IMG/VR virus record: IMGVR_UViG_3300020048_000033
Location: 21,156-85,155 of that record
Reading direction: 5' to 3' (one strand)
DNA: 64,000 nucleotides
From: a virus
Lineage: Duplodnaviria > Heunggongvirae > Uroviricota > Caudoviricetes
The position numbers and the translations under genes are program-made. How positions within the stretch are numbered: position 1 is the first letter of the stretch; each line of letters starts with the position of its first letter. The notes under the pieces were generated by a model, which saw only the letters and a list, made by a program, of their open reading frames with translations, had not been told where the DNA came from and ran no database searches. Shown in pieces: positions 13,320 through 45,481 of this stretch.

Positions 13320-13341
13320 AAATAAACCTTTGGAGGTTATT

Positions 13342-14340
13342 ATGAAAATTAAAGTGATTGGTTGCGGCGGAGCTTTCACCGAAGAACTTTATCATCAGTG
13401 TTTTATGCTTTCAGAAAATGGAAGAAACTTATTTATCGATTATGGACAACAGATTCAACCCTTTGCTCTTAAGAATGCAGGGTTAACTGTTAAAGATGTG
13501 GATGAAGTTATCATTACACATTGTCATGATGACCATGTTCTGTCCCTTGGAATGCTAGGGCTGAGACGGTATGACTTTATTAATAAACCTCAAAACTGTA
13601 AGGATACAAAGATTCCTTATGCGCCTAAATTGATTATTAATCATAACCTTTTATCGGAGATTAATGATATCACTAAGGGAAACTTTAGAACTATTGAAGG
13701 CTTTGTTTCTACACTTGATACTTTCTTTGATGTTAAGGTTCTCCAAGATAATGAGCCTTATTTTTTTGAGGGCTGGAAAGTAGATATGGTTCAACAGATT
13801 CATGTAATGACTGGATCAACCGTAATGTATTCCTATGGGGTATTTTTTGAAAAAGGGGATAAGTCCTTTTTAATTACCTCCGATACTCAATATTTTCAAC
13901 CTAGACAAGTACACTATTTTTATAAAAAAGCAAACTTAATTATCACAGATTGTGAAACAATTGGAACAAACTTTCAATTTCAAGAGGGTGAAAAGGTTTA
14001 CATTAAAGATGGAAAGCCCTATAGGTATCCTGTTCAAGCAGACGATCCCGATGGAATGAAATCTTTAGAAATTATGACTAAAGGATATGAAATAAAAGAT
14101 TGGGAATGTTTTAAGTTTATGTCTGGGGTTCATAGTTCCTATTGTGAGTTAGCTGGATATAAATCCGCTAATGCAATGATACTTTCCTCAGACATCAAAG
14201 ATAAGACCTGGTTATCCCATTATGGAGATCATGTTATTCATGGTGTTGATGCTTTCGGAAATAAAGTGGATTGGGACGCACAAGCTAAGAAAGATGGATT
14301 TGCAGGTTTTGTAAAACTTGGTCAGGTATTCGAAGTTTAA
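13342..14340 (+). CDS. metallo-beta-lactamase-fold hydrolase (RNase Z/PhnP-like)
   Basis: MKIKVIGCGGAF ... ITHCHDDH (HxHxDH zinc-binding motif) after the likely true start MKIKV at 13342. Confidence 0.55.
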   Translation: MKIKVIGCGGAFTEELYHQCFMLSENGRNLFIDYGQQIQPFALKNAGLTVKDVDEVIITHCHDDHVLSLGMLGLRRYDFINKPQNCKDTKIPYAPKLIINHNLLSEINDITKGNFRTIEGFVSTLDTFFDVKVLQDNEPYFFEGWKVDMVQQIHVMTGSTVMYSYGVFFEKGDKSFLITSDTQYFQPRQVHYFYKKANLIITDCETIGTNFQFQEGEKVYIKDGKPYRYPVQADDPDGMKSLEIMTKGYEIKDWECFKFMSGVHSSYCELAGYKSANAMILSSDIKDKTWLSHYGDHVIHGVDAFGNKVDWDAQAKKDGFAGFVKLGQVFEV

Positions 14341-14433
14341 TCCTTGTAAGTATCCCCCCCTATTCGTAGGGGTATTTTCTTTAAGATTTAAGATTTAAGT
14401 TTAAGTTAATATATCTATAGAGTTATTTCAATA

Positions 14434-15045
14434 TTGGATGTTAAAATGAAAAAAGATTTAGTAAAATATGAATGGATAGCACAACTCCCCTCAGACACTA
14501 CCTTTGTAGTTTTTGATACGGAGACAACAGGGTTATCTCCAAATGATAATCGAGTAATAGAAATCGGTGCAATACGTTTTCATTATAAGAAGGAATTGGA
14601 AGAGTTTGATTATCTGATTAATCCTGAGACAGTAATCCCTTATAATATTACTAAATTGACAAGCATTACAAATGATATGGTAAAGAATGCTCCGACCGCT
14701 AAGGATATCGTACCAAAGTTTTTAGAGTTTATTGGTGATGCAATATTGATTGCACATAATGCTTCTTTTGATATTAATTTTATTAATGCTGAGTTGGCAA
14801 GGTTATCCCTTCCTCCCCTGACTAATAAAGTAATTGATACCAGATACTTAGCACAAGCTTTATTCACAAAAGAAACTAATTATAAGTTACAGACTCTTGC
14901 TGAGAGTTTTAAGATCGAAGTACTTGCCGCACATAGAGCTAATGATGATTCTAGGGTATGTATGAAACTTTTTCTTATTTGTATTCGGGAATTATATAAA
15001 GAAATTAAACCTGTTCGCAAAGAGAAACTTAAGGAAGTTGTTTAA
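14434..15045 (+). CDS. DnaQ-like 3'-5' exonuclease (DEDDh family, Pol III epsilon-like)
   Basis: Exo I FVVFDTETTG, Exo II ILIAHNASFDINFI, Exo III HRANDDSRV motifs in correct order and spacing. Confidence 0.7.
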   Translation: MDVKMKKDLVKYEWIAQLPSDTTFVVFDTETTGLSPNDNRVIEIGAIRFHYKKELEEFDYLINPETVIPYNITKLTSITNDMVKNAPTAKDIVPKFLEFIGDAILIAHNASFDINFINAELARLSLPPLTNKVIDTRYLAQALFTKETNYKLQTLAESFKIEVLAAHRANDDSRVCMKLFLICIRELYKEIKPVRKEKLKEVV

Positions 15046-17104: not shown

Positions 17105-18490
17105 AACTAGTTCCACCTTAAAAGGTGGAATCTTCGTTTTTCGTTTCATCAAAACTGCTTTCAACTTTAGAAGATTCTAAAGCTAAAGAGGCAAGTTTCT
17201 CTACGGAGGCTTGTTCCAAGCACTCAGCTCTTTTAGTCGAGCCAAACAATTTCACATTCCTTGATGCATGAACATCCCGATCCTCGGTATATCCACAACT
17301 ACACTTATATGTCCTTTCACTTAACGGTATTGTATTCAACACTCCACAGCTTGGACAGTATTTCGTAGTTGGCATCCATTTACTGATTTTATAAGAACGA
17401 TCTGATTTCTCTAACTCAAGTAGCTTTGTTTTTACTCTTCCTAAATAGGAACTCTGAATAACTCTTGCAAACCCTTTGTTAGACTTCTTCCACTTTGACA
17501 ACTGCTCATCTTGAAAATATACTATATCATAGTCTTTCAGGAAATACGCAATCAGCTTGTTGGAATCATCTGTCTTCTTATTCGTTAAATGTTCGTACTC
17601 TTTCTTTATCTGTTTGAGACAATTATAGTATCGCTTTGACCCTTTTTCTTTCTTACTCAGCTTTCTTTGTAAGAACTTTAAATGGTCACTTTCTTGCACA
17701 CTACAATTGAATTTCTCTCCCTCAGATGTTGTTATGTTATCTTTAATTCCAAAGTCAAGTCCTACAGACTTACCTGTTTGTTCTCTCTTTTTAGAATCTT
17801 TTTCAATCATTATTGAAATGTTAATATATAATCCAGAAGCTTTTTTTATAAACTTGGCATTTGCTAATTCGTAGTTTGGATATTTCAGGAGCTGTTCCAG
17901 TCCGTACACTTTTAAATTTGCAAAGCCCGGTATTGTAATATGAGAGTTTCCACGAATTTTTAACCAAGGGCCAGTAATTATAGGAATACAATTAACTTCT
18001 TTTTTAAACTTAAGTCGTCCTACTTTGTTACCTTTCTTTTTAATTTTAGATAAAGTAACGATATCTTGTTTTTTTGATTGAACCAAAGCTCTGTGCATGA
18101 CAGAACTCAAAGTAATGTCTGAGATTACTTCATTTTTATCTTTATCGAAATGAGTTACTTTTTTATGTTCGAGATAATCATATTTGAAGATGTCAGTTGA
18201 ATTGAGCATATCATTTACAACCCACTTTGCTTGAGTGAAAGCGAAGTACATTTCAGATAATTTTTCTTTAGGGATTTGGTGAACATTGACTTTAAGTTCT
18301 AAGACTTTACAAGACTGATTTAGTCTACGGAGTTTAGTATTTTTAAGAGACTGTTTAATTTTATTGTTTGTATCTATTGATGACGGTCTCATATATTAAC
18401 TAACTCCTTATATTTAATTAGTTGTAGTTAATTAAAAGACTTATAGTTGGAAACTTCTTTATTCCACCTTAAAAGGATGGAATCTTACGA
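17105..18490 (-). mobile_element. IS200/IS605-family tnpB-only insertion element (IS1341-like)
   Basis: TnpB ORF is bracketed by near-identical subterminal hairpins in direct orientation (17109-17130 TTCCACCTTAAAAGGTGGAATC; 18462-18486 TTCCACCTTAAAAGGATGGAATC). No tnpA is present. Confidence 0.6.
17118..18392 (-). CDS. tnpB: TnpB (OrfB) RNA-guided endonuclease-like transposon protein
   Basis: C-terminal zinc finger CPSCG...CSCG followed by RuvC-III-like DRDVHASRNV. 424 aa. Confidence 0.75.
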   Translation of the reverse strand: MRPSSIDTNNKIKQSLKNTKLRRLNQSCKVLELKVNVHQIPKEKLSEMYFAFTQAKWVVNDMLNSTDIFKYDYLEHKKVTHFDKDKNEVISDITLSSVMHRALVQSKKQDIVTLSKIKKKGNKVGRLKFKKEVNCIPIITGPWLKIRGNSHITIPGFANLKVYGLEQLLKYPNYELANAKFIKKASGLYINISIMIEKDSKKREQTGKSVGLDFGIKDNITTSEGEKFNCSVQESDHLKFLQRKLSKKEKGSKRYYNCLKQIKKEYEHLTNKKTDDSNKLIAYFLKDYDIVYFQDEQLSKWKKSNKGFARVIQSSYLGRVKTKLLELEKSDRSYKISKWMPTTKYCPSCGVLNTIPLSERTYKCSCGYTEDRDVHASRNVKLFGSTKRAECLEQASVEKLASLALESSKVESSFDETKNEDSTF

Positions 18491-23388: not shown

Positions 23389-24252
23389 ATGAGTAAAACA
23401 GAAGCTTGGTACTTAGCTATGGCTAAGAGAAAGGGTAATGGAACAAATCAATTTACTAAAGCAAAGAAATTAGGTTTAGATAAACCTGTAGTTTCAGAAA
23501 ATACTAGAAAAAAGCTTAGTATAGTAGCTACGGGAAGGATACACTCGGAAGACACTAAAAAAAGAATGTCTGAAACCCATAAAAAGAATGGATTGAGTGG
23601 TGGAATTAGACCTCATAAATCAGGATTTGGAATAAAAGGGTACTACGATAATATTTTTTTTGATTCATCTTGGGAATTAGCTTATTATTTGTACTGTAAA
23701 AATAATAATTCTAATATTATAAGAAATACTGACAAGTTCAGATATGAGTATAATGGGGTAAGTCATAATTATACTCCAGATTTTATTGTAGATGGGGTTT
23801 ATGTTGAAATTAAAGGCTATGAAAATGATCAAATGAGGGCTAAGTATTTATCCGTCCCTTCTTTAATTGTTCTTCATAAAAAAGAAATGATGCCAATTAT
23901 AGAACTTGTAAAGAAGGTTTTTGGTGAAAATTTTGTAGAGTTATTTAAAACTGACGTAACAGAAAACTTAAAAAATGTAAGATTGAAACATTTATCTGAG
24001 TTAGTTGAAGCTAAAGAACTTGGAAAACTAGATAAGAATGGAAATATAAGTTTTAAGAAATTGGGGGTTATGGATATATCTTATAGGATTAATCTAGTAT
24101 TATCTTCTAATATAGATTTTTCTAAGTTCGGTTGGGTGAGTAGAGTATCTGAGATACTTAATTTGTCCCACTCCCAAGTACGAAGATTTATGATAGAAAA
24201 TATGGAAAGTTTTTATAAAGAAAAATGTTTTCATAGAAGTTTGCCCGTTTAG
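23389..24252 (+). CDS. homing-endonuclease-like protein (NUMOD-type DNA-binding repeats + PD-(D/E)xK-like nuclease; shares a C-terminal domain with 60688-61752)
   Basis: Repeated SENTRKKLS / SEDTKKRMSETHK motifs, then YTPDFIVDGVYVEIKG (PD..E.K). C-terminal ...NIDFSKFGWVSRVSEILNLSHSQVRRFMIENMESFYKEKCFHRS parallels the C-terminus of ORF 60688. Confidence 0.5.
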   Translation: MSKTEAWYLAMAKRKGNGTNQFTKAKKLGLDKPVVSENTRKKLSIVATGRIHSEDTKKRMSETHKKNGLSGGIRPHKSGFGIKGYYDNIFFDSSWELAYYLYCKNNNSNIIRNTDKFRYEYNGVSHNYTPDFIVDGVYVEIKGYENDQMRAKYLSVPSLIVLHKKEMMPIIELVKKVFGENFVELFKTDVTENLKNVRLKHLSELVEAKELGKLDKNGNISFKKLGVMDISYRINLVLSSNIDFSKFGWVSRVSEILNLSHSQVRRFMIENMESFYKEKCFHRSLPV

Positions 24253-24313
24253 TATAATGGTATTATTCCTGTTTTGTAATCAGGAGACAGGGGTTCGATT
24301 CCTCTAATCGGCA
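24243..24313 (+). ncRNA. tRNA-like gene with 9-nt anticodon loop (TTTTGTAAT); overlaps the stop of the upstream CDS
   Basis: Acceptor GCCCGTT/AATCGGC (one mismatch), T-arm AGGGG-TTCGATT-CCTCT, anticodon stem TCCTG/CAGGA. Confidence 0.35.
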
Positions 24314-24319
24314 GTATTA

Positions 24320-24372
24320 AAGATGCACACAGCGAGTAAAATCAATTTTTGTTTGAAAAACCTTGCATCTTG
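24320..24372 (+). repeat. hairpin + ACAGCGAGTAA motif element (stand-alone copy between tRNAs)
   Basis: AAGATGCA-CACAGCGAGTAAAATCAA...-TGCATCTT. The same ACAGCGAGTAA core recurs at 25104, 26128, 30894 and (variant) 32650. Confidence 0.4.
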
Positions 24373-24378
24373 TTTTTT

Positions 24379-24452
24379 GGGGATATAGCTCAGTTGGTTA
24401 GAGCATCGGTTTTGCAAATCGAGGGTCAGGGGTTCGAATCCCCTTTTCTCCA
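24379..24452 (+). tRNA. tRNA-Ala (anticodon UGC)
   Basis: G3-U70 wobble in acceptor GGGGATA/TTTCTCC, D-arm GCTCAGTTGGTTAGAGC, anticodon stem TCGGT/ATCGA with loop TTTGCAA, T-arm AGGGG-TTCGAAT-CCCCT. Confidence 0.8.
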
Positions 24453-24460
24453 TCATTTTT

Positions 24461-24547
24461 GGAACGATGTTCGAGAGGTTTAAGAAAACAGTTTGCTAAA
24501 CTGTCGTATGTGAAAGCATACCGCTGGTTCAAATCCAGCTCGTTCCG
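24461..24547 (+). tRNA. tRNA-Ser (anticodon GCU), class II
   Basis: Acceptor GGAACGA/TCGTTCC perfect, anticodon stem ACAGT/ACTGT with loop TTGCTAA, long variable arm, T-arm CTGG-TTCAAAT-CCAG. Confidence 0.8.
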
Positions 24548-25043
24548 TAAGGTTGGATACACAATCTAAACCGTGTACCATGTTCTCTCTGGACAATGCA
24601 AGTCGTTGTTCCTTTGGAATGGGGTGGCTGTTGAACTCAGCTAGTGTATTCAATGTATTGATTAAGAAGAAGAACTTGGCTTATGATAGTGAAGCTATCA
24701 CTCTTCGCAACCGAGAGTGAAACGTTATCTTAAAAGGCATGGTTAGAAATCCAGTACGAGATATGGTACCTATCGTAGACTATTGGAGAGTTTCAGTTAA
24801 GTTTTTCTTTTTTATTATTGCGGGTGTATCCCCTCACTCTGATAAGGTGTAGAAAGGGTATCCGGTTACAGGGTGGTTCAAGTCCACCGACCCGCACTTC
24901 TTGTTTTAGCTTAGAGGTAGAGCGACTGGGATGACAGTGAGACGGTGTATCGAAACCGCCAAACAGGATTACAAAAATTGTTTCCCACCTTAAGGAAGAA
25001 GAGTTGTCCAGCTCTTGATTCTTATAAAACAATTTTATTTTTT

Positions 25044-25162
25044 GGGGCGGTAGCTTAGTTGGTAGAGCAACAGTATGTAACAAAAGAGGTTTGTAAAAAT
25101 CTCATACAGCGAGTAATAACAATTGGAACTGTGTGTCGGTGGTTCGAATCCACCCTGCCCCA
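25044..25162 (+). ncRNA. tRNA-like gene interrupted by a ~50-nt insertion carrying the ACAGCGAGTAA motif
   Basis: Acceptor GGGGCGG/CTGCCCC, D-arm GCTTAGTTGGTAGAGC, T-arm GGTGG-TTCGAAT-CCACC. Anticodon stem halves ACAG...CTGT are separated by CAAAAGAGGTTTGTAAAAATCTCATACAGCGAGTAATAACAATTGGAA. Confidence 0.4.
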
Positions 25163-25384
25163 TCTCATTAAGAATTTACAGGAGTAAGTTGAAATGCAAA
25201 TGTTTGACAAAGTTAAACTTAATTTTGACCACAATAGACTTTTAACTGATGATATGATTTCTTGGATGGAAGAACATAAAACTTCAATCTTTAAGATTGA
25301 AAAAATATCTGATGAATCTGTTAAACTTTTCAAGATAAACTTTTGGATTACCAAAGATTTGTTAATCTTACTGTAGAATTACTT

Positions 25385-25457
25385 GCCTTGTTATTTCAGT
25401 AGTTAGAATGAGATCCTTACACGGTCTAGGTCGTAGGTGCGAATCCTACACAAGGTA
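25385..25457 (+). tRNA. tRNA-Val (anticodon UAC)
   Basis: Acceptor GCCTTGT/ACAAGGT, anticodon stem AGATC/GGTCT with loop CTTACAC, T-arm GTAGG-TGCGAAT-CCTAC. Confidence 0.55.
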
Positions 25458-25611
25458 TTATGGAAAATGATAAAGAGATAAAATGTTCAGTATGTGAAGA
25501 TTCAGGTTGGGTTCTACATCAAGTATTCCAAGACCTTATACACGCAGATATGAGTGTATTCGTTCATAAGCTTTATGTTGAATGTGTTTGTAAGAAAGAG
25601 AAGAAGACTGC

Positions 25612-25938
25612 ATGAAGAAATTAATTGTTCTTGGTTTAGTATTAGCTATATGTTTTCAAACTTATGGTCAACAAGTAGAAAGTTCTGGAACTATTATTCT
25701 TACTTCTAAACGTCTTGATTGGACTGAATATGAACTTAAGATTATTACAGAAGTGCCGGTAATTGTTGACTATACAACGCTTTGTGAAACTTCCTTGAAC
25801 GAATTAAATTCTTCAGTGAAAAAATACATTGCTATGGGATGGCAACCCTACGGGGGAGTAACTTTTAGTTTGACTAATGGAAGCACCTATACAAATACCC
25901 ATTTGTATGTCCAAGTACTAGTAAAGTATAAGAAATAG
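25612..25938 (+). CDS. hypothetical secreted protein
   Basis: N-terminal signal peptide MKKLIVLGLVLAICFQTYG. Confidence 0.35.
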   Translation: MKKLIVLGLVLAICFQTYGQQVESSGTIILTSKRLDWTEYELKIITEVPVIVDYTTLCETSLNELNSSVKKYIAMGWQPYGGVTFSLTNGSTYTNTHLYVQVLVKYKK

Positions 25939-26064
25939 ACTTTCAAAGAGTTTTCAGACTTTTTAACACTGAATATTTGAGAGATAGAAACTCTTAAGAA
26001 GGGTGGACTTCAAATAGCTCATGAACTTTTACTAACGATTGAAAGCGTCAAGTAAAAGTTTCTT

Positions 26065-26186
26065 GCTCCTTTAACTCAGCGGTAGAGTCCGAAAAAACAA
26101 AATGAACTTTGAAAAAAGTTCACACAGCGAGTAACAAAAATACCCATTTAAGGTCGTGGTCGTAGGTTCGATTCCTACAGGGAGCT
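26065..26186 (+). ncRNA. tRNA-like gene interrupted by a ~45-nt insertion (hairpin GAACTTTGAAAAAAGTTC + ACACAGCGAGTAAC)
   Basis: Acceptor GCTCCTT/AGGGAGC, D-arm ACTCAGCGGTAGAGT, T-arm GTAGG-TTCGATT-CCTAC. 122 nt overall. Confidence 0.4.
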
Positions 26187-26566
26187 GAAAATAACTTTGT
26201 GTGATGGAAGGGAATCATCCGGCAGTGCGTAAGTCCGAAATGTACAAAGGTCGAGGTACTGAGAAGCCTAGGGGCGAAGCTTATGAAATAGGCTAATGTG
26301 AAGAGTTCGAGTCTCTTCGAAAGTTATTTTTCTTTTGTTTATCTAAGGTTGAAAAAGCCTTTTATAATATTTTATGTTCTGGCTAGAGTGGAAAAGGGGC
26401 AAGGCGATAGAGCTTTATTCTTAACTGGATAATAGTAGTCTTAGGTAATCCCAAACCTCTTAGTCAACATGGTGGATGTTGGGGAGTAGACAAACCCAGT
26501 TGCCTGTGGAGCAACTATTGTAATGATTTCGACAGTGCAAATCTGTTCATCCACCCTTTCTGTTAT

Positions 26567-26640
26567 GCTGAATTAGAAAAGAGGTTTAATTCAATCGGCT
26601 CATATCCGGTCATGCGTAGGTTCGATTCCTACATTCAGCA
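26567..26640 (+). tRNA. tRNA-Met/Ile2 (anticodon CAU)
   Basis: Acceptor GCTGAAT/ATTCAGC perfect, anticodon stem ATCGG/CCGGT with loop CTCATAT, T-arm GTAGG-TTCGATT-CCTAC. Confidence 0.75.
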
Positions 26641-26772
26641 AAGTTGTGAATAATTAAGGCTACAACTAATTATCTATAAAGGAGAACACATGAAGTAGAT
26701 TTTTACATTAGGACCTTGAAGTAAATTGTTTTATTTTCTAAAAACATTTTTACACAATTCAAGGAGCAATTT

Positions 26773-28352: not shown

Positions 28353-28724
28353 ATGGCTGATTTAATTTCACAGAAAATAGTGCTTAATCTAAATACAACT
28401 TTTTCATTGGGGAGGCTTTCAGCCCAAAGCGCACATGCCAGTTGGATATCAGTTCTTGATCAAGGATATTGGGATAGTAATGATAATTTTGTCATTCCTT
28501 GTAAAACCAAACCTGAATTAAAGAGTTGGCTTTCTGGACAGTTTACAAAAGTTATGTTAAGAGGTTGGGGTGATGATATGCTTTTATCTTTAAGAGATAA
28601 GGCAGAAGAGAATGGAATCCCCTTTGGTTTAATGTCGGAGGATGGTTTTCATACTGCCCTTTCGATAGGTCCGGCTCTTACTAAAGACATCGATTTAACC
28701 ATCGGTAAATTACTCTTGTTATAA
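28353..28724 (+). CDS. peptidyl-tRNA hydrolase, PTH2 family-like
   Basis: GRLSAQSAHAS resembles the PTH2 G-K-I-A-A-Q-C-S-H-A-A active-site motif. C-terminal TALSIGPALTKDIDLTIGKL matches the PTH2 ...LGIGPGP..LID..TG.L end. Confidence 0.5.
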   Translation: MADLISQKIVLNLNTTFSLGRLSAQSAHASWISVLDQGYWDSNDNFVIPCKTKPELKSWLSGQFTKVMLRGWGDDMLLSLRDKAEENGIPFGLMSEDGFHTALSIGPALTKDIDLTIGKLLLL

Positions 28725-28767: not shown

Positions 28768-28839
28768 GCCCCTATGGTGAAGAGGTATCATTTCGGAATC
28801 TAAATCTGATAGTCGAAGGTTCGATTCCTTCTAGGGGCA
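28768..28839 (+). tRNA. suppressor-type tRNA, anticodon CUA (reads UAG amber)
   Basis: Acceptor GCCCCTA/TAGGGGC perfect, T-arm GAAGG-TTCGATT-CCTTC, anticodon stem TCGGA/TCTGA with 7-nt loop ATCTAAA (U33 and A37 present). Anticodon C-T-A at 28800-28802. Confidence 0.65.
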
Positions 28840-29693: not shown

Positions 29694-29778
29694 GGAGCGG
29701 TATGTTAGTGGCTATACAGGCGGCTTTGAATACCGTTTATACCGTGAGGTATCGTGAGTTCGAGTCTCACCCGCTCCG
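29694..29778 (+). tRNA. tRNA-Ser (anticodon UGA), class II
   Basis: Acceptor GGAGCGG/CCGCTCC perfect, anticodon loop TTTGAAT, variable-arm hairpin ATACC-GTGA-GGTAT, T-arm GTGAG-TTCGAGT-CTCAC. Confidence 0.6.
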
Positions 29779-29858
29779 TAGTTTATAACTAAAGGACATA
29801 ACTCTTTTAGAGTTACTTCTACTAATTAAGTATCTTTTTAATTGGTAGGTAGTCCGAA

Positions 29859-30548
29859 ATGGTATGTGAAAATTGTGAAAAAGAGTTTTTAGTAGAATTA
29901 GGTACTTCTAAAAGATTCTGTTCTATGTTTTGTTCAAGAGCTTATTCTAATAAGTTTGATAATAAAACTGAAACAAAATCTTGTGTTTGTATAGATTGTA
30001 AAACTACTTTTAATGTGAATAAAAGAGCAAATGCTAAAACGAGCCGGTGTGAAAAATGTAAAAACTTACATCTATCTCCCTCTAAGCTTAAAAGAAAAGA
30101 ACTTTGTAAACCCAAAGTTATAAAAGAAAGGAAAGTTTTATTTTGTCTATGTTGTGGAAAAGAGACAGGAATAACTAAGTATTGTGATTTACAATGCAAA
30201 AAAGAACTTTACCGTAAACTTAAATATGATTACTTTTTAAGTAATCCTAAGGAACTGCAAGTAGCCAGTTATATACCAAGAGTATTATTTTATAATATTT
30301 TTCTTAAAGAACAGCAGGGTTTATGTGATATTTGTGGATGTGGTACGATACATAATGAGAAACCTTTAGTATTTGTTTGTGATCATATTGATGGGGACGC
30401 AACACATAATACTAGGGATAATTTAAGGCTTATATGCTCTAACTGTGATAGTCAACTTCCTACTTTTAAGAGTAAGAATAAAAACTCTACACGCTCGGAT
30501 CTAAGAAAAAAGCAACTTATAAGTAAAATATTAAAAGATATTAAATAA
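29859..30548 (+). CDS. HNH endonuclease with N-terminal Cys-rich zinc-binding region
   Basis: VCDHIDGDATHNTRDNLRLICSNCDSQ is a paralog of the HNH motif of ORF 16213. Many CxxC pairs N-terminally. Confidence 0.6.
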   Translation: MVCENCEKEFLVELGTSKRFCSMFCSRAYSNKFDNKTETKSCVCIDCKTTFNVNKRANAKTSRCEKCKNLHLSPSKLKRKELCKPKVIKERKVLFCLCCGKETGITKYCDLQCKKELYRKLKYDYFLSNPKELQVASYIPRVLFYNIFLKEQQGLCDICGCGTIHNEKPLVFVCDHIDGDATHNTRDNLRLICSNCDSQLPTFKSKNKNSTRSDLRKKQLISKILKDIK

Positions 30549-30563
30549 TAATTAGGAGGCATA

Positions 30564-30800
30564 ATGAACTTTGTAGAAGCTTTAAAATTAGTAATGCAAG
30601 GAAAAAAAGTAATCTTGAAGAGCGTTCAGGATCAAGTAAATAAAATGGAGCTTAGAGGTCTATTATTTATTAGATTGTCTGACAATAAGGACTGCTTAGT
30701 TGCAGAATCTAAGCAAGGCTATATACAACCTTGGCCCTTTGAAGGTTGTACTAATCTTTTAAACTGGTATATAGCTGAAGATTGGATTGAAGTGGATTGA
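30564..30800 (+). CDS. hypothetical protein
   Basis: 78-aa ORF. Confidence 0.3.
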   Translation: MNFVEALKLVMQGKKVILKSVQDQVNKMELRGLLFIRLSDNKDCLVAESKQGYIQPWPFEGCTNLLNWYIAEDWIEVD

Positions 30801-30809
30801 AGTGGAGTG

Positions 30810-30843
30810 AAAGGTACCGTGGGTTCGAATCCCACCCGCTCCG
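30810..30843 (+). pseudogene. tRNA 3'-half fragment (T-arm GTGGG-TTCGAAT-CCCAC + acceptor strand CCGCTCC)
   Basis: Identical acceptor 3' strand to tRNA-Ser(UGA) at 29694. No 5' half is present. Confidence 0.35.
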
Positions 30844-31065
30844 TACATTAAAATGATATTTGATTCTTTAGTTTTATCTTAAAGACAAATACAGCGAGTA
30901 AAACACTATGAATTGGTGAATAGATTCGTCTATTTCCTTGGTTTTGACTTTACCTACAAACAAAAGTTGAGCGGTGGCTTTTCCATCGATGAGGTAAGAA
31001 CAACCAATAACAGAAATGTCGTGTTGGAATATCGGATACATTTTAAGTTGTCTTGTTTTCTTTGG

Positions 31066-31514: not shown

Positions 31515-32507
31515 TTGGAGGTGCTAATGCAAAATCGTTATGAAGAAACTTCGTCAATGGATACGAAGGCAATTGTGAAGTTGGTTAAGAAGGTAGCTAT
31601 TGGTTTGGGAATTATTCTCCTTGCCCTTATTCTTAATCCCGTTTCTTGTGTAGGAAAAAGTGAGAGAGGTATTAAACTTCGTCTCGGAGCAGTACAGGAT
31701 GGAGTTTTGTTGCCGGGTGTGGCACTTAAGATTCCGGTAATCGAGTCCATTGATACCTACAGCATTGTTCCTAACAAGGAGATAATTTCAATTCCTGTGG
31801 GAAACGAAGGGGCTATCACTACTGACAACCAAACAATTGGCGCAACCTTCGAGGTATACTGGAAATACAAAGATACTCGTATTGCAGAAATTGCTCGTGA
31901 ATACACGAACGCCCGTCTTACTGAACTTATCAGTACAAATACGAAAGCGGCAATTAAATCTACAATTGGTTCCTATACAATTTTTGATCTTGCCAGTAAG
32001 CAAACCATTATCACTTCTGGTGTACTTAATATTCTTAAAGAAAATACTGCTAAGTATCCTGTAGAAATCGTTGAAGTTCGTAATACAAACTATACATGGT
32101 CAGACGATTTTGATAAGGCAATTAAAGAAACCCAGAAGATGAAGCAGGAAGTATTGCAGAAGGAACAGGAAGTTTCAAAAGCAACCCTTGAGTTCTCCAA
32201 GCAGGTTGCAGAAGCAGATGCCAAGCGCAAGGTAACTGAAACCCAAGCAGAAGCAAAAATGAATGCAACTATTATTGAAGCTAGGGGAGCACTTGAATCT
32301 GCAAAGCTTAACAAGCAAGCGAAGATTGAAGAAGGTCTTGGTATTAAGTCATTCAATGAATCACTTGCCGCCAACCTTTCGACTGAACTTAAACTTCGTG
32401 AGTTGTCCAATGAACTTGCAAGGATTGAAAAGTGGGACGGAAAATATGTATCTGTTCAGAATTATACCCCTATCCCAATTCAACAGGGTTCACTTCTCGG
32501 AAAGTAA
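31515..32507 (+). CDS. SPFH/band-7 (prohibitin/HflK-like) domain protein with N-terminal TM helix and C-terminal coiled coil
   Basis: TM segment VAIGLGIILLALILNPV followed by an SPFH-like region (GIKLRLGAVQDGVLLPGVALKIPVIESIDTYSIVP...) and a long EQEV/AEAK coiled coil. Confidence 0.45.
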   Translation: MEVLMQNRYEETSSMDTKAIVKLVKKVAIGLGIILLALILNPVSCVGKSERGIKLRLGAVQDGVLLPGVALKIPVIESIDTYSIVPNKEIISIPVGNEGAITTDNQTIGATFEVYWKYKDTRIAEIAREYTNARLTELISTNTKAAIKSTIGSYTIFDLASKQTIITSGVLNILKENTAKYPVEIVEVRNTNYTWSDDFDKAIKETQKMKQEVLQKEQEVSKATLEFSKQVAEADAKRKVTETQAEAKMNATIIEARGALESAKLNKQAKIEEGLGIKSFNESLAANLSTELKLRELSNELARIEKWDGKYVSVQNYTPIPIQQGSLLGK

Positions 32508-32690
32508 ACACTTCTTAATTTAAGAAGATTAGGTTGATAAAGGTCAAATCTTTATCAACTTTTAGATTAAAGATTCTTACAGCAATTAAAATTACCCTTC
32601 AATGGATAACCATTTTTTAGAATCTTGTCTTCAAAAAGAATAAAAGGTCACACAGCAAACTAACAACACTTTAAATGTTAAAAACGAACT

Positions 32691-34214
32691 TTGTATTTTG
32701 GAGGAATTATTATGGAAACAGTAGCAAAATTTTTGAGGAACGTACCGGACTCAAAAACAGAAAATGGGGCAGATACTTTTAGTACGTCTCTTAATGCAAA
32801 TTTAGATTTATTTGCAATGGGTGGAGCACTTCGTTCACGTAGCGAAAGTGATGTAAAAGAACTTGTATTTAAAGCATTTATGGAAGATCCTAAATTGGCA
32901 ATAAAAAATCTTTTTCGAATTCGGGATGCTCGTGAGGGCTGTGGCGAGAGAAATACTTTCCGAATTGCTCTCAACAAACTCGGTAATGAGAAACTTTTTA
33001 AGACTTCGGTATTAGAAAACTTTCTTGGAAATACTGACAAGCTTCGTCTTATTGCAGAATACGGGCGTTGGGATGATCTATTTTCACTTTTTGGTACTCA
33101 GTATGAATCCAAAGTCTTCGCTCTGATTAAATCTCAATTGCTTGAAGATATAAGTGAAATGAATATCAAGGGTGAGAAAGCGAAGATTTCCCTTCTTGGT
33201 AAGTGGCTTCCTTCTATCAATGCTTCTAATGTGGAAACACGTAAGCTTGCATTTAAGATTGAAAAGGCTCTTGACTTAAATCATAAGACCTATCGTCAGA
33301 CACTTTCACGTCTTCGGGACCAGTTGAATGTTCTCGAAAGGAACATGTCAGCAAAAGACTATGACGCAATTGAATATCACAAGGTTCCTTCAATGGCTTT
33401 CTTAAAACACATGAAAGCATTCAAGACTCATGATGCCACAAAGTTTTCTAGCTTTATGGAAAAGGTAGCAAAGGGAGAAGCTAAGGTAAATACTGGTGTA
33501 CTTTTCCCTTCTGATATCGTCCACAAACTTACCGATGGAGACCCTTGGAATTGCAGAAGTACTCCAAGCTCAGAAGTTGCAGAACTCTCTTTGCTTTGGG
33601 ATAATCTTCCAAACTATTTGGGTGATGCCGGTGAGCAAGCCTTGGTAATCGCAGATACCTCTGGTTCTATGTCGGGTACACCGATTGAAGTAGCTCTATC
33701 TCTTGCAATGTATTATGCAGAACGTAATCTTGGCCCTTGGAAAGATTATTTCATCTCCTTCTCTGCAAGACCTACGTTGCAACACATCTCGGGTTCAAAC
33801 CTGCTTGAGAAGTTTAGAAATATGGCTAATACTGGATGGGACTCGAATACCAATGTTGAGTTGGCTTTCAAACTTATTCTTGATATCGCTATTAAGAATA
33901 AACTTACGCAGGATGAACTTCCTAAGAAGTTGTATATCGTTTCGGATATGGAATTTGATTCCTGCTGTGGTACCAACTATTCCAATGCAAAGGAATTGTT
34001 TGAAGCTCAGGGCTATAAACTTCCTACCGTTGTTTTCTGGAATGTAGATGCAAGAAGTGACCAAAGCCCTGTAAGGTTTGATGAACAGGGGACAATGTTG
34101 GTATCTGGGTATTCTGCATCCGTTTTCAGGAATCTTGTAGGTAAAGAGGAATGCACTCCGGTTTCTTTGATGCTTGAAGTTCTGAATGGACCTCGGTATA
34201 ACGATATTATTTAA
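32691..34214 (+). CDS. DUF2828 / TROVE-like + von Willebrand factor A (MIDAS) domain protein (Ro60-like architecture)
   Basis: C-terminal vWA MIDAS motif LVIADTSGSMSG. 507 aa. N-terminal region has a TROVE-like pattern. Overall architecture resembles Ro60/Rsr. Confidence 0.45.
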   Translation: MYFGGIIMETVAKFLRNVPDSKTENGADTFSTSLNANLDLFAMGGALRSRSESDVKELVFKAFMEDPKLAIKNLFRIRDAREGCGERNTFRIALNKLGNEKLFKTSVLENFLGNTDKLRLIAEYGRWDDLFSLFGTQYESKVFALIKSQLLEDISEMNIKGEKAKISLLGKWLPSINASNVETRKLAFKIEKALDLNHKTYRQTLSRLRDQLNVLERNMSAKDYDAIEYHKVPSMAFLKHMKAFKTHDATKFSSFMEKVAKGEAKVNTGVLFPSDIVHKLTDGDPWNCRSTPSSEVAELSLLWDNLPNYLGDAGEQALVIADTSGSMSGTPIEVALSLAMYYAERNLGPWKDYFISFSARPTLQHISGSNLLEKFRNMANTGWDSNTNVELAFKLILDIAIKNKLTQDELPKKLYIVSDMEFDSCCGTNYSNAKELFEAQGYKLPTVVFWNVDARSDQSPVRFDEQGTMLVSGYSASVFRNLVGKEECTPVSLMLEVLNGPRYNDII

Positions 34215-34279
34215 GAAATTAAATACAAGGACAGGCTGAAAAGCTTGTCCTTTTTATTTTAATGTGTTAATATAGTTGT

Positions 34280-36091
34280 ATGAGTAATTTAGAAAATAAA
34301 CAAAAAATAGAACAGCAATGTAAAGATTGGACAGCAAAGAATATAAGTCCTGAGTTTACCTTTAGGGAGCATCAACTGGAATACATCGTTGATGTTATCA
34401 TAGATATCCTTGAAGAGAATATAAAGACAAATGCTGTAGAAGCACCGACAGGTTCTGGTAAAAGTCTCATAGCAATAATCACTTGTGGTGTCCTTTGGAA
34501 TTACTATAATAAGCGTTCATATATTCTTGTATCAGATTTAGGTCTTATCGAACAATACACAAAAGATATAACAGATTATGGTTTGGACTGGGGAATAATT
34601 ATTGGGCAAGATAATTATAAGTGTACCAGAAATGATAATGTTTTTAGTCAAGGTGAATGTAAGCTGAACATGGTTCCGTATTATGTTTTACAAGACAATA
34701 AACTTTGCATAGGTGCAGGATATGATTGTGCATTTAATTGTAAATATATTCAAGCTAGAAAAAAAGCTATGAGTTCCCCTGTCACCTTAATGACCTATCA
34801 ATTCTTTTTAATCCAAAGAAATTATATTGCAAGTATTTCAGAAGAGGATAAAGAACCTTTTGGAAAACGAGATCTGGTAGTATGTGATGAAGCTCATAAG
34901 CTTAATGAAATAATTCAGTCCCAGTATTCTCCTGTCATAGATGACGAAAATGCTACCAAAATCGATATGCTATTAAAGTATGCGGAAGCATATGGGTTAT
35001 ATCCATCAGCAGAAACAATTGCTCAGTATAAGTTTAGAGATAAAGTATTTCCTGAACTTCATGATTTTGGAAAAGTTTCTAAACTTATTTCTACTCTAGA
35101 AGACACTCAGACAATTTATAATGCGCTTATAATTTATTTGAAACACTTAAATTATCTTGCAGATATAAATCAACAACTTCTTGATATAGTAAAAGAAAGC
35201 GACCCTGAGTTAAGGAAGACTTTCAAGAAACAATTATTTTTTGGGGCATGGGCAAATGAACTTCATAATAAGTTTAAAGATTATATTGAACTTATTGGGG
35301 AAGTTGGTCATAAGTATATCATAAAAAATGGAACACCAGAAAAGATAACCCTCAATTGTATTTATGAGGATAGAATGGTTGACAAGTATTTTCATAAAGT
35401 AAGTGGAAATGAATTATTGATGTCGGCAACTTTAGGTAATCCCGAGGTGTATAAGAGATCAATTGGTGCTTCAAACTTTAAGCATGTTAAGATTCCGAGT
35501 ACTTTTGATTTTACTAAGTCACCCATTTATTTTCTTAATAAATATAAGATGTCATATAAAGAGAAAGAAGCAAGTTTACCTCATGTTTGTAATCAGATAG
35601 AAAAGATTTGTAAAGGACATAAAAAACACAGAGGAATAATTCAAACAGGTTCGTATGATTTTATGCACAAGCTTTATAAGAGCTTATCTGTAGAAACAAA
35701 AAAACGTATCTTTATGTATTCTGAATCCTCAGAAAAAAATGATGTTCTTAAAAAGTTTAACAATAGTGAAAATGGTGTATTGATTGGACCTACCTTGCTT
35801 GAGGGCTTAAACTTTCCTGACAGTATGTGTAGATTTATCATTTGTATGAAACTTCCCTATGCCAGTTTAGGGGACAAATTAGTAAAAGCAAAGTTGAGTT
35901 ATCTTAAGGGCTGGTATGAAGCAAATGTTTGTTCTAAATTGGAGCAGGGTATTGGTAGAGGGGTTAGACATAAATCTGACTGGTGCATTACCTATATTTT
36001 GGATGCCTGTTTTAATGATATCCTAACCAGAAGTCGTACAAACCTTTCGAGTGAATCCCTTGCCAGAATAACTCTGATAGAAGAGTTGTGA
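34280..36091 (+). CDS. DinG/XPD (Rad3)-like superfamily 2 DNA helicase
   Basis: Walker A EAPTGSGKSL, DEAH box VVCDEAHKL, and C-terminal helicase motifs (GPTLLEGLNFPD ... GIGRGVRHKSDWC). Cys cluster in the N-lobe. Preceded by a GTTAATATA motif. Confidence 0.6.
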   Translation: MSNLENKQKIEQQCKDWTAKNISPEFTFREHQLEYIVDVIIDILEENIKTNAVEAPTGSGKSLIAIITCGVLWNYYNKRSYILVSDLGLIEQYTKDITDYGLDWGIIIGQDNYKCTRNDNVFSQGECKLNMVPYYVLQDNKLCIGAGYDCAFNCKYIQARKKAMSSPVTLMTYQFFLIQRNYIASISEEDKEPFGKRDLVVCDEAHKLNEIIQSQYSPVIDDENATKIDMLLKYAEAYGLYPSAETIAQYKFRDKVFPELHDFGKVSKLISTLEDTQTIYNALIIYLKHLNYLADINQQLLDIVKESDPELRKTFKKQLFFGAWANELHNKFKDYIELIGEVGHKYIIKNGTPEKITLNCIYEDRMVDKYFHKVSGNELLMSATLGNPEVYKRSIGASNFKHVKIPSTFDFTKSPIYFLNKYKMSYKEKEASLPHVCNQIEKICKGHKKHRGIIQTGSYDFMHKLYKSLSVETKKRIFMYSESSEKNDVLKKFNNSENGVLIGPTLLEGLNFPDSMCRFIICMKLPYASLGDKLVKAKLSYLKGWYEANVCSKLEQGIGRGVRHKSDWCITYILDACFNDILTRSRTNLSSESLARITLIEEL

Positions 36092-45283: not shown

Positions 45284-45335
45284 CCCCTTATTTATCTATA
45301 TTTCTTGTTCCAGAAACTGCTAAAATAATTAGTGA

Positions 45336-45382: not shown

Positions 45383-45481
45383 GTTCTATTGAATATTAAA
45401 CCTCAATACACTTAATTAAACAAATGTACTTGTCAAAAATATGTCAAGTACATTATACACTCTAAAAAGGATTAAACTTAA

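What the first reader, a model, noticed from the sequence alone, without database searches (positions are those of the whole stretch)
24320..26150. Recurrent hairpin + ACAGCGAGTAA element, twice inserted inside tRNA-like genes
The core (C)A(C/T)ACAGCGAGTAA(A/C)A occurs at 24330, 25104, 26128, 30894 and as a variant at 32650. Each is preceded by a short hairpin. Two copies sit inside the anticodon region of otherwise canonical tRNA bodies (25044-25162 and 26065-26186), giving 119-122-nt genes. One is free-standing between tRNAs. The copies are too short for group I introns. It could be a mini-intron/processing cassette, a mobile micro-element targeting tRNA anticodon loops, or a shared RNase recognition signal.
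Basis: seen in the sequence. Interest (0 to 1): 0.65.

Follow-up and report, generated by a model that had tools for sequence, protein, structure and literature searches.

The report
Conserved mini-introns inside phage tRNA genes
Two tRNA genes of this large phage are interrupted by 46-50-base inserts (a hairpin followed by a C-N-G-C motif) of a conserved type that also sits in tRNA genes of several other phage groups, where it has been annotated as "pseudo-tRNA"; it looks like an undescribed kind of small tRNA intron, but splicing has not been shown.

Summary
ACAGCGAGTAA occurs exactly four times, all on the + strand (24329, 25106, 26124, 30891); about 0.5 matches are expected at one mismatch or fewer. 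Two copies lie inside full-length tRNA matches. One is tRNA-Tyr(GUA), 25044-25162, with a 46-nt insert in the anticodon loop. The other is a Lys(UUU)-like tRNA, 26065-26186, with a 50-nt insert in the 5' strand of the anticodon stem.

Both inserts share one architecture: an A-rich linker, a 7-8-bp hairpin with a GNNA tetraloop closed by U-A, 2-3 nt, then C-N-G-C. The same module interrupts tRNA genes in:
- KVP40-like vibriophages (annotated "tRNA-Pseudo")
- Aeromonas phages Aeh1 and Ahp1
- a Synechococcus phage
- a 735-kb uncultured phage
- a relative of this phage

All 7 hairpin pairs covary. There are 13 G·U pairs and no A·C mismatches, so the fold is in the RNA. Removing the inserts in silico restores canonical tRNAs.

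The inserts are not group I introns, not bulge-helix-bulge introns, and match no Rfam ribozyme. The best reading is a new class of protein-dependent tRNA intervening sequences. Splicing is inferred, not shown. The two free-standing copies lack the family hairpin. One has positional counterparts in relatives, so the motif also acts, or persists, outside tRNAs.

The parts
25044..25162 (+). Interrupted tRNA-Tyr(GUA) gene, 119 nt. Exon 1 is 25044-25080, the intervening sequence 25081-25126, exon 2 25127-25162. The boundary is ambiguous by 1 nt (37/38 or 38/39).
   Evidence: Rfam tRNA model 53.8 bits, full length, with the insert in the anticodon loop. ARAGORN in intron mode calls Tyr gta i(38,46). 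The in-silico spliced form is a canonical tRNA-Tyr.
25081..25126 (+). 46-nt intervening sequence: linker CAAAA, hairpin 25086-25103 (7 bp, GUAA loop), AU, then ACAGCGAGUAA at 25106-25116, then a 10-nt tail.
   Evidence: Family model R1 scores 36.8 bits at 25080-25115. The sequence was in the training alignment A2.
26065..26186 (+). Interrupted Lys(UUU)-like tRNA gene, 122 nt. Exon 1 is 26065-26092, the intervening sequence 26093-26142, exon 2 26143-26186. The insert lies in the 5' strand of the anticodon stem.
   Evidence: Rfam tRNA model 40.4 bits. Joining 26092 to 26143 restores the stem CGACC/GGUCG with loop CAUUUAA, and ARAGORN calls Lys ttt. Other junctions give other anticodons, so the identity is uncertain.
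26093..26142 (+). 50-nt intervening sequence: linker AAAAACAAAA, hairpin 26103-26122 (8 bp, GAAA loop), C, then ACAGCGAGUAA at 26124-26134, then CAAAAAUA.
   Evidence: R1 scores 38.4 bits at 26098-26133. The sequence was in training alignment A2.
24320..24371 (+). Free-standing copy between tRNA-Thr (ends 24314) and tRNA-Ala (starts 24378). The motif (24329-24339) lies inside a stem, AAGATGCA paired with TGCATCTT, that is followed by a T-run.
   Evidence: Exact motif; fold; no R1 hit at E <= 10. It shares TTAAAGA-N5-CACACAGCGAGTAAAA with the other copies (read from the sequence).
30865..30903 (+). Free-standing copy: hairpin 30865-30885 (7-nt loop, not GNNA) followed by CAAATACAGCGAGTAAAA. It lies downstream of a duplicated tRNA-Ser 3' end (30815-30845) and upstream of tRNA-Lys (31062).
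   Evidence: R1 gives only 8.9 bits. Positional counterparts downstream of tRNA-Ser(tga) in relatives: L196:8234 tcACAGCAAGCAAaaacc and L197:4122 tcACAGCGATCAAcaaac.
32649..32664 (+). Weak variant CACACAGCAAACTAAC, 48 nt upstream of the start codon of the Ro60-like gene.
   Evidence: R1 14 bits, E 0.42. Its status is uncertain.

Best explanation
The two tRNA-embedded copies are RNA-level intervening sequences (mini-introns) of a conserved, so far uncharacterised phage family.

Architecture. Each insert is 39-51 nt long. It has an A-rich 5' linker, a 7-8-bp hairpin capped by a GNNA tetraloop closed by U-A, a 2-3-nt spacer, an invariant C-N-G-C (here CAGC within ACAGCGAGUAA), and a variable tail. 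The inserts sit in the anticodon arm, either in the 5' strand of the stem (28/29 or 29/30) or in the loop.

Proposed mechanism (inferred, not shown):
1. The precursor folds as a normal tRNA, with the insert protruding from the anticodon arm.
2. A phage or host protein recognises the hairpin/CNGC module. The tRNA body, rather than a fixed distance from the module, fixes the two cut sites, because the distance from CNGC to the 3' junction varies from 9 to 19 nt.
3. An RNA ligase reseals the anticodon stem or loop, giving a functional tRNA. Plausible ligases are of the kinds these phages and their hosts carry: Rnl-type, LigT/57B-type or RtcB.

The free-standing copies share only the 3' part (TTAAAGR-N4-5-ACAGCRA..AA). 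They are either the same protein-recognition signal used outside tRNAs or relics of inserts.
For: Shown:
- Motif recurrence is far above chance.
- Both hosts are full-length tRNA matches.
- The same module interrupts tRNAs in KVP40, F86, phi-ST2, VS1, nt-1, V07 and 1.081.O; in Synechococcus phage BUCT-ZZ01; in Aeromonas phages Aeh1 and Ahp1; in the 735-kb phage LR756501; and in relative L197.
- In the 19-sequence alignment all 7 hairpin pairs show compensatory changes. 95.5% of cells are paired against 69% in shuffles. The covariation score is 0.72 against 0.22 shuffled and 0.02-0.13 when the partners are slid.
- Wobble pairs are 13 G·U against 0 A·C, so the fold is specific to the tRNA sense strand, i.e. 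to the RNA.
- Model R1 finds members outside its training set: Ahp1 43.9 bits, Aeh1 32.6 and 22.8, additional KVP40-group copies 30-31, LR756501 18.3. The best score in 701 kb of unrelated DNA is 22 bits.
- In-silico excision gives ARAGORN-canonical tRNAs in 11 cases: Tyr, Lys, Asn x5, Ala, Met, Arg. This includes a restored perfect 5-bp anticodon stem for every stem-located insert.
- The host tRNAs differ in sequence but keep compensated acceptor and anticodon stems across phages of cyanobacteria, Vibrio and Aeromonas. That argues against decaying pseudogenes.
- ARAGORN calls no other tRNA-Tyr in this window.

Inferred: the excision itself, the enzymes involved, and the role of CNGC as a recognition element.
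Against: - There are no RNA data. Splicing is not demonstrated for any member, and the genome papers read here (phi-pp2/KVP40, phiGrn1/phiSt2, Aeh1) list tRNA 'pseudo-forms' or pseudogenes and describe no such insert.
- No endonuclease or ligase candidate was found among the roughly 40 window ORFs scanned.
- Some restored anticodon loops lack the near-universal U33: window CAUUUAA and KVP40 CAUGCAC.
- Some paralogues in KVP40-like phages would have 8-nt loops.
- KVP40 also has an uninterrupted tRNA-Asn, so the interrupted copies are not strictly needed.
- The intron idea does not explain the free-standing copies, one of which is positionally conserved in relatives.
- The two window copies were in the training set of R1, and the alignment members were chosen by requiring at least 6 of 7 pairs. 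This inflates the 'percent paired' figure, though not the diversity of pair types.
Confidence: 0.5

Rival explanations
1. Selfish DNA micro-element. A small mobile insertion has landed in tRNA genes and inactivated them; the interrupted genes are pseudogenes, as annotated, and the hairpin serves transposition or homing at the DNA level.
For: The same module is found in different tRNAs and at different positions. Cores are near-identical within one genome: the two BUCT-ZZ01 copies and the 16-mer in the window. The tRNA region is crowded with homing-endonuclease-like genes. Public annotation calls them pseudo-tRNAs.
Against: The hairpin shows 13 G·U and 0 A·C, which is strand-specific and expected for RNA, not for duplex DNA or a cruciform. 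No terminal inverted repeats, no target-site duplication and no second subterminal hairpin were seen in the sequences read. Exons stay canonical, with compensated stems, across very distant phages. Anticodon stems are exactly restorable in all stem-located cases.
Confidence: 0.15
2. Not spliced. The interrupted tRNAs are tRNA-like scaffolds carrying a protein-binding module. They could be Y-RNA-like partners of the phage Ro60-like protein (DUF2828/DUF7788), or decoys for host anticodon nucleases.
For: Every element-bearing lineage where the gene was looked for encodes the Ro60-like protein: the window at 32712-34214, its relative L197, KVP40.0300, Aeh1 ORF154c, Ahp1_171, and BUCT-ZZ01, where it ends 85 nt before the tRNA cluster that includes the two interrupted tRNAs. 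The predicted fold matches Ro60 over its full length (pLDDT 88; Foldseek 1yvr E 3.5e-8, TM about 0.56). Bacterial and phage Ro60 partners (YrlA) are tRNA-like RNAs encoded next to the gene (PMC4201824).
Against: The Ro60-like gene is in 701 phage records. Its neighbourhoods in wV8 (including the whole tRNA cluster), GAP32, Bacillus 2S-4, L196 and L198 have no R1 element. YrlA has the opposite topology, with the ends in the Ro-binding stem, and there is no Rfam YrlA match above threshold. Intact anticodons and restorable stems would be unnecessary for a scaffold.
Confidence: 0.15
3. The ACAGCGAGTAA box, with the upstream TTAAAGR, is a transcription signal of this phage lineage: a promoter for a phage-specific factor, or a boxB/boxA-like antitermination site for long untranslated tRNA operons. 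It happens to be carried inside two introns.
For: All copies are on the transcribed strand in non-coding DNA, upstream of tRNAs or operons. The copy downstream of tRNA-Ser sits after terminator-like hairpins in L196 and L197 and upstream of the Band7/Ro60-like/helicase operon. The order hairpin with GNRA-like loop, then a conserved about 11-nt box ending in UAACAA, resembles rrn boxB-boxA (my own recollection, not tested).
Against: In KVP40-, Aeh1- and BUCT-ZZ01-type phages the module was found only inside tRNA anticodon arms, and only C-N-G-C is conserved there. The sigma-70-type scan shows no enrichment and no site at the motif. There are only 4-5 copies in 64 kb. RNA-level covariation of the hairpin is not expected for a duplex promoter.
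Confidence: 0.1

Closest known systems
'tRNA-Pseudo-3/4/5' of vibriophage KVP40 and the equivalent pseudo-tRNAs of phi-pp2, phi-ST2/phi-Grn1, Aeh1 and Ahp1
   Same: Same object. These are 113-124-nt tRNA genes with a 39-51-nt insert in the anticodon arm that has the same hairpin (UGNNAA apex) + N3 + CNGC module. R1 scores are 30-46 bits.
   Different: Outside C-N-G-C the motif differs (AUUCUGCAAUC or AUGCUGCAAAC against ACAGCGAGUAA here). No free-standing copies were seen in those loci. The literature read here treats them as pseudogenes and describes no insert family.
'Enigmatic' tRNA introns of Lak megaphages (Devoto et al., bioRxiv 10.1101/356790)
   Same: Short inserts in tRNA genes of huge phages, including tRNA-Tyr(GTA). 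They are highly conserved and their splicing mechanism is unknown.
   Different: The 50-kb tRNA cluster of Lak-B1 that I scanned has no R1 element (best 14 bits). The Lak intron sequences themselves were not available, so any relationship is untested.
Archaeal non-canonical tRNA introns (bulge-helix-bulge, cut by EndA, joined by RtcB)
   Same: Small, protein-spliced introns at canonical (37/38) and non-canonical positions in the anticodon arm. The tRNA body helps to define the junctions.
   Different: No consistent bulge-helix-bulge can be drawn at the junctions of 10 members, even allowing shifts of 3 nt either way. No splicing endonuclease was found in the window. The hosts are bacteria.
Bacterial group I introns in tRNA genes (cyanobacterial tRNA-Leu/fMet, Azoarcus tRNA-Ile, Patescibacteria)
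   Same: Located in the anticodon arm of bacterial-type tRNA genes.
   Different: At 39-51 nt against 200 nt or more, there is no room for the P3-P9 core. There is no Rfam Intron_gpI match.
Bacterial and phage Y RNAs (YrlA) partnered with Ro60
   Same: A tRNA-like RNA with an extra protein-binding module, encoded near a Ro60-type gene, also in phages.
   Different: The topology is permuted relative to YrlA, there is no YrlA model match, and the elements here keep complete anticodon stem-loops.

Membership tests
Phage tRNA hairpin-CNGC intervening sequences (family defined here; includes the KVP40 pseudo-tRNA inserts) | Insert lies within the anticodon arm of an otherwise full-length tRNA gene, on the sense strand | tested here: met
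   Rfam tRNA model 1-71/71 at 25044-25162 and 26065-26186, with 48 and 61 nt skipped
Phage tRNA hairpin-CNGC intervening sequences (family defined here; includes the KVP40 pseudo-tRNA inserts) | A 7-bp hairpin with a GNNA tetraloop closed by U-A, an A-rich linker 5' of it, and C-N-G-C starting 3 nt after the 7-bp stem | tested here: met
   Fixed-register alignment A2. R1 scores 38.4 and 36.8 bits, against 22 bits or less in 701 kb of control DNA. Caveat: both window copies were in the training set.
Phage tRNA hairpin-CNGC intervening sequences (family defined here; includes the KVP40 pseudo-tRNA inserts) | Removing the insert restores a canonical anticodon stem-loop and a tRNA that a standard finder recognises | tested here: met
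   Tyr gta (25080|25127) and Lys ttt (26092|26143). The second has A33 and an ambiguous junction.
Phage tRNA hairpin-CNGC intervening sequences (family defined here; includes the KVP40 pseudo-tRNA inserts) | The free-standing copies (24329, 30891, 32652) carry the same module | tested here: not met
   No R1 hit for 24329; 8.9 bits for 30878-30900; 14 bits for 32632-32661. They share only the 3' box.
Group I intron | Conserved catalytic core (P3-P9, G-binding site in P7), usually 200 nt or more | tested here: not met
   The inserts are 46 and 50 nt. There is no RF00028 match at gathering threshold or at E <= 10.
Archaeal/eukaryal protein-spliced tRNA intron | Bulge-helix-bulge: two 3-nt bulges holding the splice sites, separated by a 4-bp helix | tested here: not met
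   Script over 10 members with all junction shifts from -3 to +3. Only 3 reach 4/4 pairs, at inconsistent shifts; both window members reach at most 3/4.
Archaeal/eukaryal protein-spliced tRNA intron | A splicing endonuclease (EndA/Sen) is encoded or available | tested here: inconclusive
   None found among about 40 window ORFs scanned with Pfam. The rest of the 163.8-kb contig or longer, and the host, could not be examined.
Known small self-cleaving ribozymes (hammerhead, twister, twister-sister, pistol, hatchet, HDV-like, hairpin) | Match to the family covariance model | tested here: not met
   cmscan against all Rfam 15 families over 24200-26700 at E <= 10 gives only tRNA and chance-level hits. 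The same holds for the KVP40 and BUCT-ZZ01 loci at E <= 0.01.
Y RNA (YrlA) | tRNA-like domain plus a Ro-binding stem formed by the 5' and 3' ends, encoded next to a Ro60 orthologue | tested here: not met
   A Ro60-like gene is present, but it starts about 6.5 kb downstream of the second interrupted tRNA. There is no YrlA match in the window and only a 29.8-bit partial hit in KVP40 against a threshold of 69. The topology differs.
MITE / IS200-IS605-type palindrome-associated element | Terminal inverted repeats or two subterminal hairpins, and a target-site signature | tested here: not met
   A single hairpin, no inverted termini and no consistent flanking duplication in the 12 insert sequences read. 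The G·U-only asymmetry points to RNA.
Functional intron (any class) | Exons are joined in the RNA in vivo | not testable with these tools
   No transcriptome or tRNA-seq data were available.

The most novel reading that the evidence does not exclude
Tailed phages of several lineages (KVP40-like, Aeh1-like, a T4-like cyanophage, and huge uncultured phages including this one) carry a third kind of bacterial-world tRNA intron. It is neither self-splicing group I/II nor bulge-helix-bulge. It is 39-51 nt long and is defined by a covarying GNNA hairpin plus a C-N-G-C box. It is removed by a dedicated protein pathway and resealed by phage or host RNA ligases, whose natural substrates (for example for Rnl2 and 57B/LigT-like enzymes) have been unclear. 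The 'pseudo-tRNAs' annotated since the early T4-like phage genome papers would then be working, regulated tRNA genes.
Probability: 0.4. Interest if true: 0.85.

Novelty: new variant of a known kind. Interest (0 to 1): 0.7.

Why it matters
Bacterial and phage tRNA introns are textbook-limited to self-splicing group I (rarely group II) introns. Small enzyme-spliced tRNA introns are considered an archaeal and eukaryal trait.

A conserved, structured insert of about 45 nt, maintained in canonical tRNA bodies across phages of cyanobacteria, Vibrio, Aeromonas and unknown hosts, would mean one of two things. Either there is a new splicing or processing pathway in bacterial cells, or there is a new class of tRNA-derived regulatory or decoy RNAs.

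Several consequences follow:
- Genes long annotated as 'pseudo-tRNAs' in well-known culturable phages (KVP40, Aeh1) would be reinterpreted. Because these phages can be grown, the question is directly testable.
- Phage RNA ligases and the widespread Ro60-like protein next to phage tRNA clusters would gain candidate natural substrates.
- tRNA gene finders could be improved for phage genomes.

Tried and rejected
- Exact scans for CAYACAGCGAGTAANA. IMG/VR gave 61 hits, all in unrelated, mostly coding-looking contexts without the hairpin.
- Close relatives of the phage through neighbouring proteins in IMG/VR: none. The 287-aa neighbour is a mobile endonuclease-like protein and so is not syntenic. 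The only other contig with it, L062, is 100% identical to the window.
- Lak-B1 tRNA cluster: no family element. The Lak intron table is not held.
- Bulge-helix-bulge, group I and known ribozymes: rejected.
- Pairing of the CNGC box with exons, with the 5' linker or with the D arm: inspected by eye in 12 members, and no consistent partner was found.
- Type I-C CRISPR repeat (50656-50890, GTCACTCCCCGTGCGGGGGTGTGGATTGAAAC): unrelated to the motif.
- Specific association with the Ro60-like DUF2828 gene. It co-occurs in every element-bearing lineage checked. The gene is far more widespread, however, and its neighbourhoods elsewhere lack the element, so I did not adopt it as the partner.
- Sigma-70 promoter and terminator scan: uninformative.
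- Anticodon of the second tRNA: it cannot be fixed. Lys UUU is the most parsimonious; UAA and UUA are possible with other junctions.
- Literature searches for a description of these inserts: none found. The KVP40 genome paper itself is not held.
Full report
**Context**

The window is AT-rich phage-like DNA with about 30 tRNA genes on the + strand. It also carries:
- a suppressor tRNA(CUA)
- a type I-C CRISPR-Cas system (Cas3, Cas5, Cas8c, Cas7 and an array at 50656-50890)
- a TnpB gene
- several homing-endonuclease-like genes inside the tRNA region

The source contig is at least 163.8 kb. It has no close relative in the GenBank phage collection or in IMG/VR.

**Checking the observation**

ACAGCGAGTAA occurs exactly at 24329, 25106, 26124 and 30891, always on the + strand. 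At one mismatch or fewer there are 4 matches against 0.5 expected, and no shuffle reaches 4. The 16-mer CACACAGCGAGTAAAA recovers the same four sites. At two mismatches the count equals chance, so the 'variant' near 32650 has no statistical support of its own.

The Rfam tRNA model aligns end to end to 25044-25162 (53.8 bits) and to 26065-26186 (40.4 bits), each with a large insertion in the anticodon arm.

The first is tRNA-Tyr:
- anticodon stem ACAGU/ACUGU
- loop starting AUGUAA, i.e. anticodon GUA
- a 46-nt insert after position 37 or 38

ARAGORN in intron mode gives the same call.

In the second, only CGA/UCG of the anticodon stem flanks the insert. Joining 26092 to 26143 restores a perfect CGACC/GGUCG stem with loop CAUUUAA. 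The insert is therefore in the 5' strand of the stem, not in the loop. ARAGORN then calls Lys(UUU), but other junctions give other anticodons and the loop has A33.

Hairpins precede the motif at 25086-25103, 26103-26122 and 30865-30885. The copy at 24329 instead sits inside a larger stem followed by a T-run.

**The element belongs to a family**

A BLAST search with the interrupted tRNA-Tyr gave one hit spanning the insert, in Vibrio phage F86. That locus has annotated 120-121-nt tRNAs with inserts of the same build. Following this lead, the same module was found in:
- all KVP40-like vibriophages examined; KVP40 has five copies, three of them annotated tRNA-Pseudo-3/4/5
- Synechococcus phage BUCT-ZZ01, in tRNA-Met/Ile(CAU) and tRNA-Asn
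- Aeromonas phages Aeh1 and Ahp1
- the 735-kb uncultured phage LR756501, in tRNA-Arg(UCU)
- L197, a syntenic relative of the window phage. Its interrupted tRNA (433-548) has a GUAA hairpin followed by UACAGCGGAAAAAAC, the same ACAGCG box as here

In a fixed register, the consensus reads as follows:
1. an A-rich linker
2. a 7-bp stem
3. a GNNA loop closed by U-A
4. three nucleotides
5. C-N-G-C, usually followed by R-A

**Structure evidence**

On the 19-sequence alignment:
- all seven stem pairs show changes on both sides
- 95.5% of cells are paired, against 69% in shuffles
- the covariation score is 0.72, against 0.22 in shuffles and 0.02-0.13 when partners are slid by 1-3 columns

The sequences were picked by requiring at least 6 of 7 pairs. 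This inflates the paired fraction but not the variety of pair types.

Wobble pairs are 13 G·U against no A·C. The helix therefore exists on the tRNA sense strand only, as expected for RNA and not for duplex DNA.

The covariance model R1 finds members that were not used to build it:
- Ahp1 at 43.9 bits
- Aeh1 at 32.6 and 22.8 bits
- extra KVP40-group copies at 30-31 bits
- LR756501 at 18.3 bits, which falls below the best control score

The best score in 701 kb of unrelated DNA is 22 bits. In the window only the two tRNA-embedded copies score (38.4 and 36.8 bits). The free-standing copies do not.

**What the inserts do to the tRNAs**

Insert positions differ. They are at 28/29 or 29/30 in the 5' strand of the anticodon stem, or in the loop at 31/32 or 37/38-38/39:
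- stem: the window Lys-like tRNA, KVP40 p3, both BUCT-ZZ01 tRNAs, Ahp1, Aeh1, LR756501
- loop: window Tyr, KVP40 p4 and p5

Deleting the insert restored a canonical tRNA in the 11 cases that ARAGORN typed. These comprise Tyr, Lys, Asn x5, Ala, Met and Arg, and every stem-located insert leaves a perfect or near-perfect 5-bp anticodon stem. A twelfth, L197:433-548, gave no standard anticodon with the junction I tried.

The host tRNAs differ widely in sequence between phages but keep compensated stems. This is hard to reconcile with decaying pseudogenes.

The distance from CNGC to the 3' junction ranges from 9 to 19 nt. The junctions therefore appear to be set by the tRNA fold, not measured from the module.

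Within a genome the cores are very similar: identical in BUCT-ZZ01, and a shared 16-mer in the window. The host tRNAs nevertheless differ, which implies spread or conversion between tRNA genes.

**What it is not**
- Not a group I intron. It is 46-50 nt with no core, and there is no Rfam match.
- Not a bulge-helix-bulge intron. No consistent BHB can be drawn in 10 members, even with junction shifts.
- Not any Rfam ribozyme or other family at E <= 10.
- Not related to the phage's CRISPR repeat.
- No inverted termini or target duplications of a DNA transposon were seen.

The genome papers I could read mention only 'pseudo' tRNAs. The Lak megaphage paper reports 'enigmatic' tRNA introns, but the Lak-B1 tRNA cluster has no R1 element. 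Five literature searches found no description of this family. The original KVP40 paper could not be read.

**Free-standing copies**

All window copies share more than the 11-mer: T[T/G][T/A]AAA[G/A], then 4-5 nt, then CA[C/T]ACAGCGAGTAA. In the introns the upstream box is the loop and 3' strand of the hairpin.

The copy at 30891 has positional counterparts in the two syntenic relatives, about 100 nt downstream of tRNA-Ser(UGA) and upstream of the Band7/Ro60-like/helicase operon:
- L196: TAAAGGCAATCACAGCAAGCAAAAACC
- L197: TAAAGGCACTCACAGCGATCAACAAAC

In the window, an endonuclease-like insertion (29859-30800) with a duplicated tRNA-Ser 3' end (30815-30845) separates the tRNA from the motif.

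The box therefore has a life outside tRNAs in this lineage. It could be a recognition site for the same factor, a processing site or a transcription signal. I cannot tell which.

**A candidate partner that I did not adopt**

The gene at 32712-34214 (DUF2828 + DUF7788; PHROG 850 'RNA-binding protein') has homologues in every element-bearing lineage where I looked for it. These are KVP40.0300, Aeh1 ORF154c, Ahp1_171, L197 and BUCT-ZZ01. Four of them match the window protein at 29-37% identity (E 1e-73 to 1e-100); the L197 copy matches at 57%. In BUCT-ZZ01 the gene ends 85 nt before the tRNA cluster.

Its predicted structure (pLDDT 88) matches Ro60 over the full length. Ro60 partners in bacteria and phages are tRNA-like Y RNAs.

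However, the gene is present in 701 phage records. Its neighbourhoods in wV8 (including the whole tRNA cluster), GAP32, Bacillus phage 2S-4, L196 and L198 lack the element. The link is to phage tRNA clusters in general. A Y-RNA-like role for the interrupted tRNAs is kept as a rival.

**Conclusion**

It is one lineage-specific version of a conserved, RNA-level insert in phage tRNA genes.

The most likely function is a small intervening sequence that is excised by proteins and resealed by an RNA ligase. The hairpin/CNGC module would serve as the recognition element and the tRNA fold would set the junctions.

Excision, the enzymes and the role of the free-standing copies are all inferred. Culturable members make the decisive experiments straightforward.

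Noticed in passing
window 32712-34214 (operon 31515-36091): A Ro60-like protein (DUF2828 + DUF7788; AF2 pLDDT 88; Foldseek Ro autoantigen E 3.5e-8) lies in a conserved Band7 / Ro60-like / DinG-type helicase operon. Homologues are in 701 phage records. They often sit directly next to tRNA clusters (wV8, BUCT-ZZ01) or next to an RNA ligase (GAP32). No Y-RNA partner is known for this phage family.
   Followed up: partly
window 29859-30845: An endonuclease-like insertion (ORFs 29859-30548 and 30564-30800) is followed by a duplicated 3' end of tRNA-Ser(UGA) (30815-30845; compare 29749-29779). This looks like a homing event that regenerated the tRNA end. A 10-nt tandem repeat TGGATTGAAG x2.9 lies at 30783-30811.
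   Followed up: partly
window 26187-26335: A long closing stem (GAAAATAACTTT...AAAGTTATTTTTC) encloses a T-arm-like hairpin (GAAGAG-TTCGAGT-CTCTTC). It is a tRNA-like or tmRNA-like RNA with no Rfam match. In relative L197 a tmRNA-model hit (28.8 bits, threshold 47) lies at 4257-4381, between the free-standing motif and the Band7 gene.
   Followed up: no
window 24549-24968 and 26336-26471: Long non-coding stretches lie between tRNAs. Odd tRNA-like genes are at 24820-24897 (acceptor and T arm intact, aberrant core; tRNA-Sec model 16.5 bits) and 24900-24968 (tRNA model 31.2 bits, 4-bp anticodon stem with a 6-nt loop). ARAGORN also reports tRNAs with 6- and 8-nt anticodon loops at 19740 and 22401.
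   Followed up: no
window 28768-28839: A suppressor tRNA with anticodon CUA (reads UAG), next to a PTH2 peptidyl-tRNA hydrolase gene (28353-28724). This suggests possible stop-codon reassignment in this phage. Relative L197 has the same tRNA at 3210-3280.
   Followed up: no
window 42854-50890: A phage-encoded type I-C CRISPR-Cas system: Cas3 42854-45283, Cas5 45482-46156, Cas8c 46149-48128, Cas7 48130-49191, and an array of about 3.5 repeats at 50656-50890.
   Followed up: no
window 17118-18392 (-): A TnpB/Cas12f-like gene (OrfB_IS605 + TNB domain) at the edge of the tRNA region.
   Followed up: no
window 13300-15045: A metallo-beta-lactamase-fold protein (RNase Z / Apyc1-like, 13300-14340) is followed by an RNase T-family exonuclease (14434-15045). 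Both could take part in tRNA end processing. A PARP-like domain (29-589) and an NMNAT-like cytidylyltransferase (2039-2614) are also present.
   Followed up: no
L196:2382-2482: A relative of the window phage has a 101-nt tRNA (tRNA model 51.8 bits) with a different insert of about 30 nt in the anticodon loop. The insert has no CNGC box, so more than one kind of short insert exists in this lineage.
   Followed up: no
L064 2100-2620; L063 2480-2980; L067 1126-1627: KVP40-like phages carry 2-3 paralogous interrupted tRNAs sharing the 5' part GGUGUAGUGG.AGCACACGUAGCA. Their restored anticodon stem CGAUC/GAUCG would enclose different loops, some of 8 nt (AUUCAUAA, AUUUCCAA, AUAGGGA). Several restored loops in the family have A rather than U at position 33.
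   Followed up: partly
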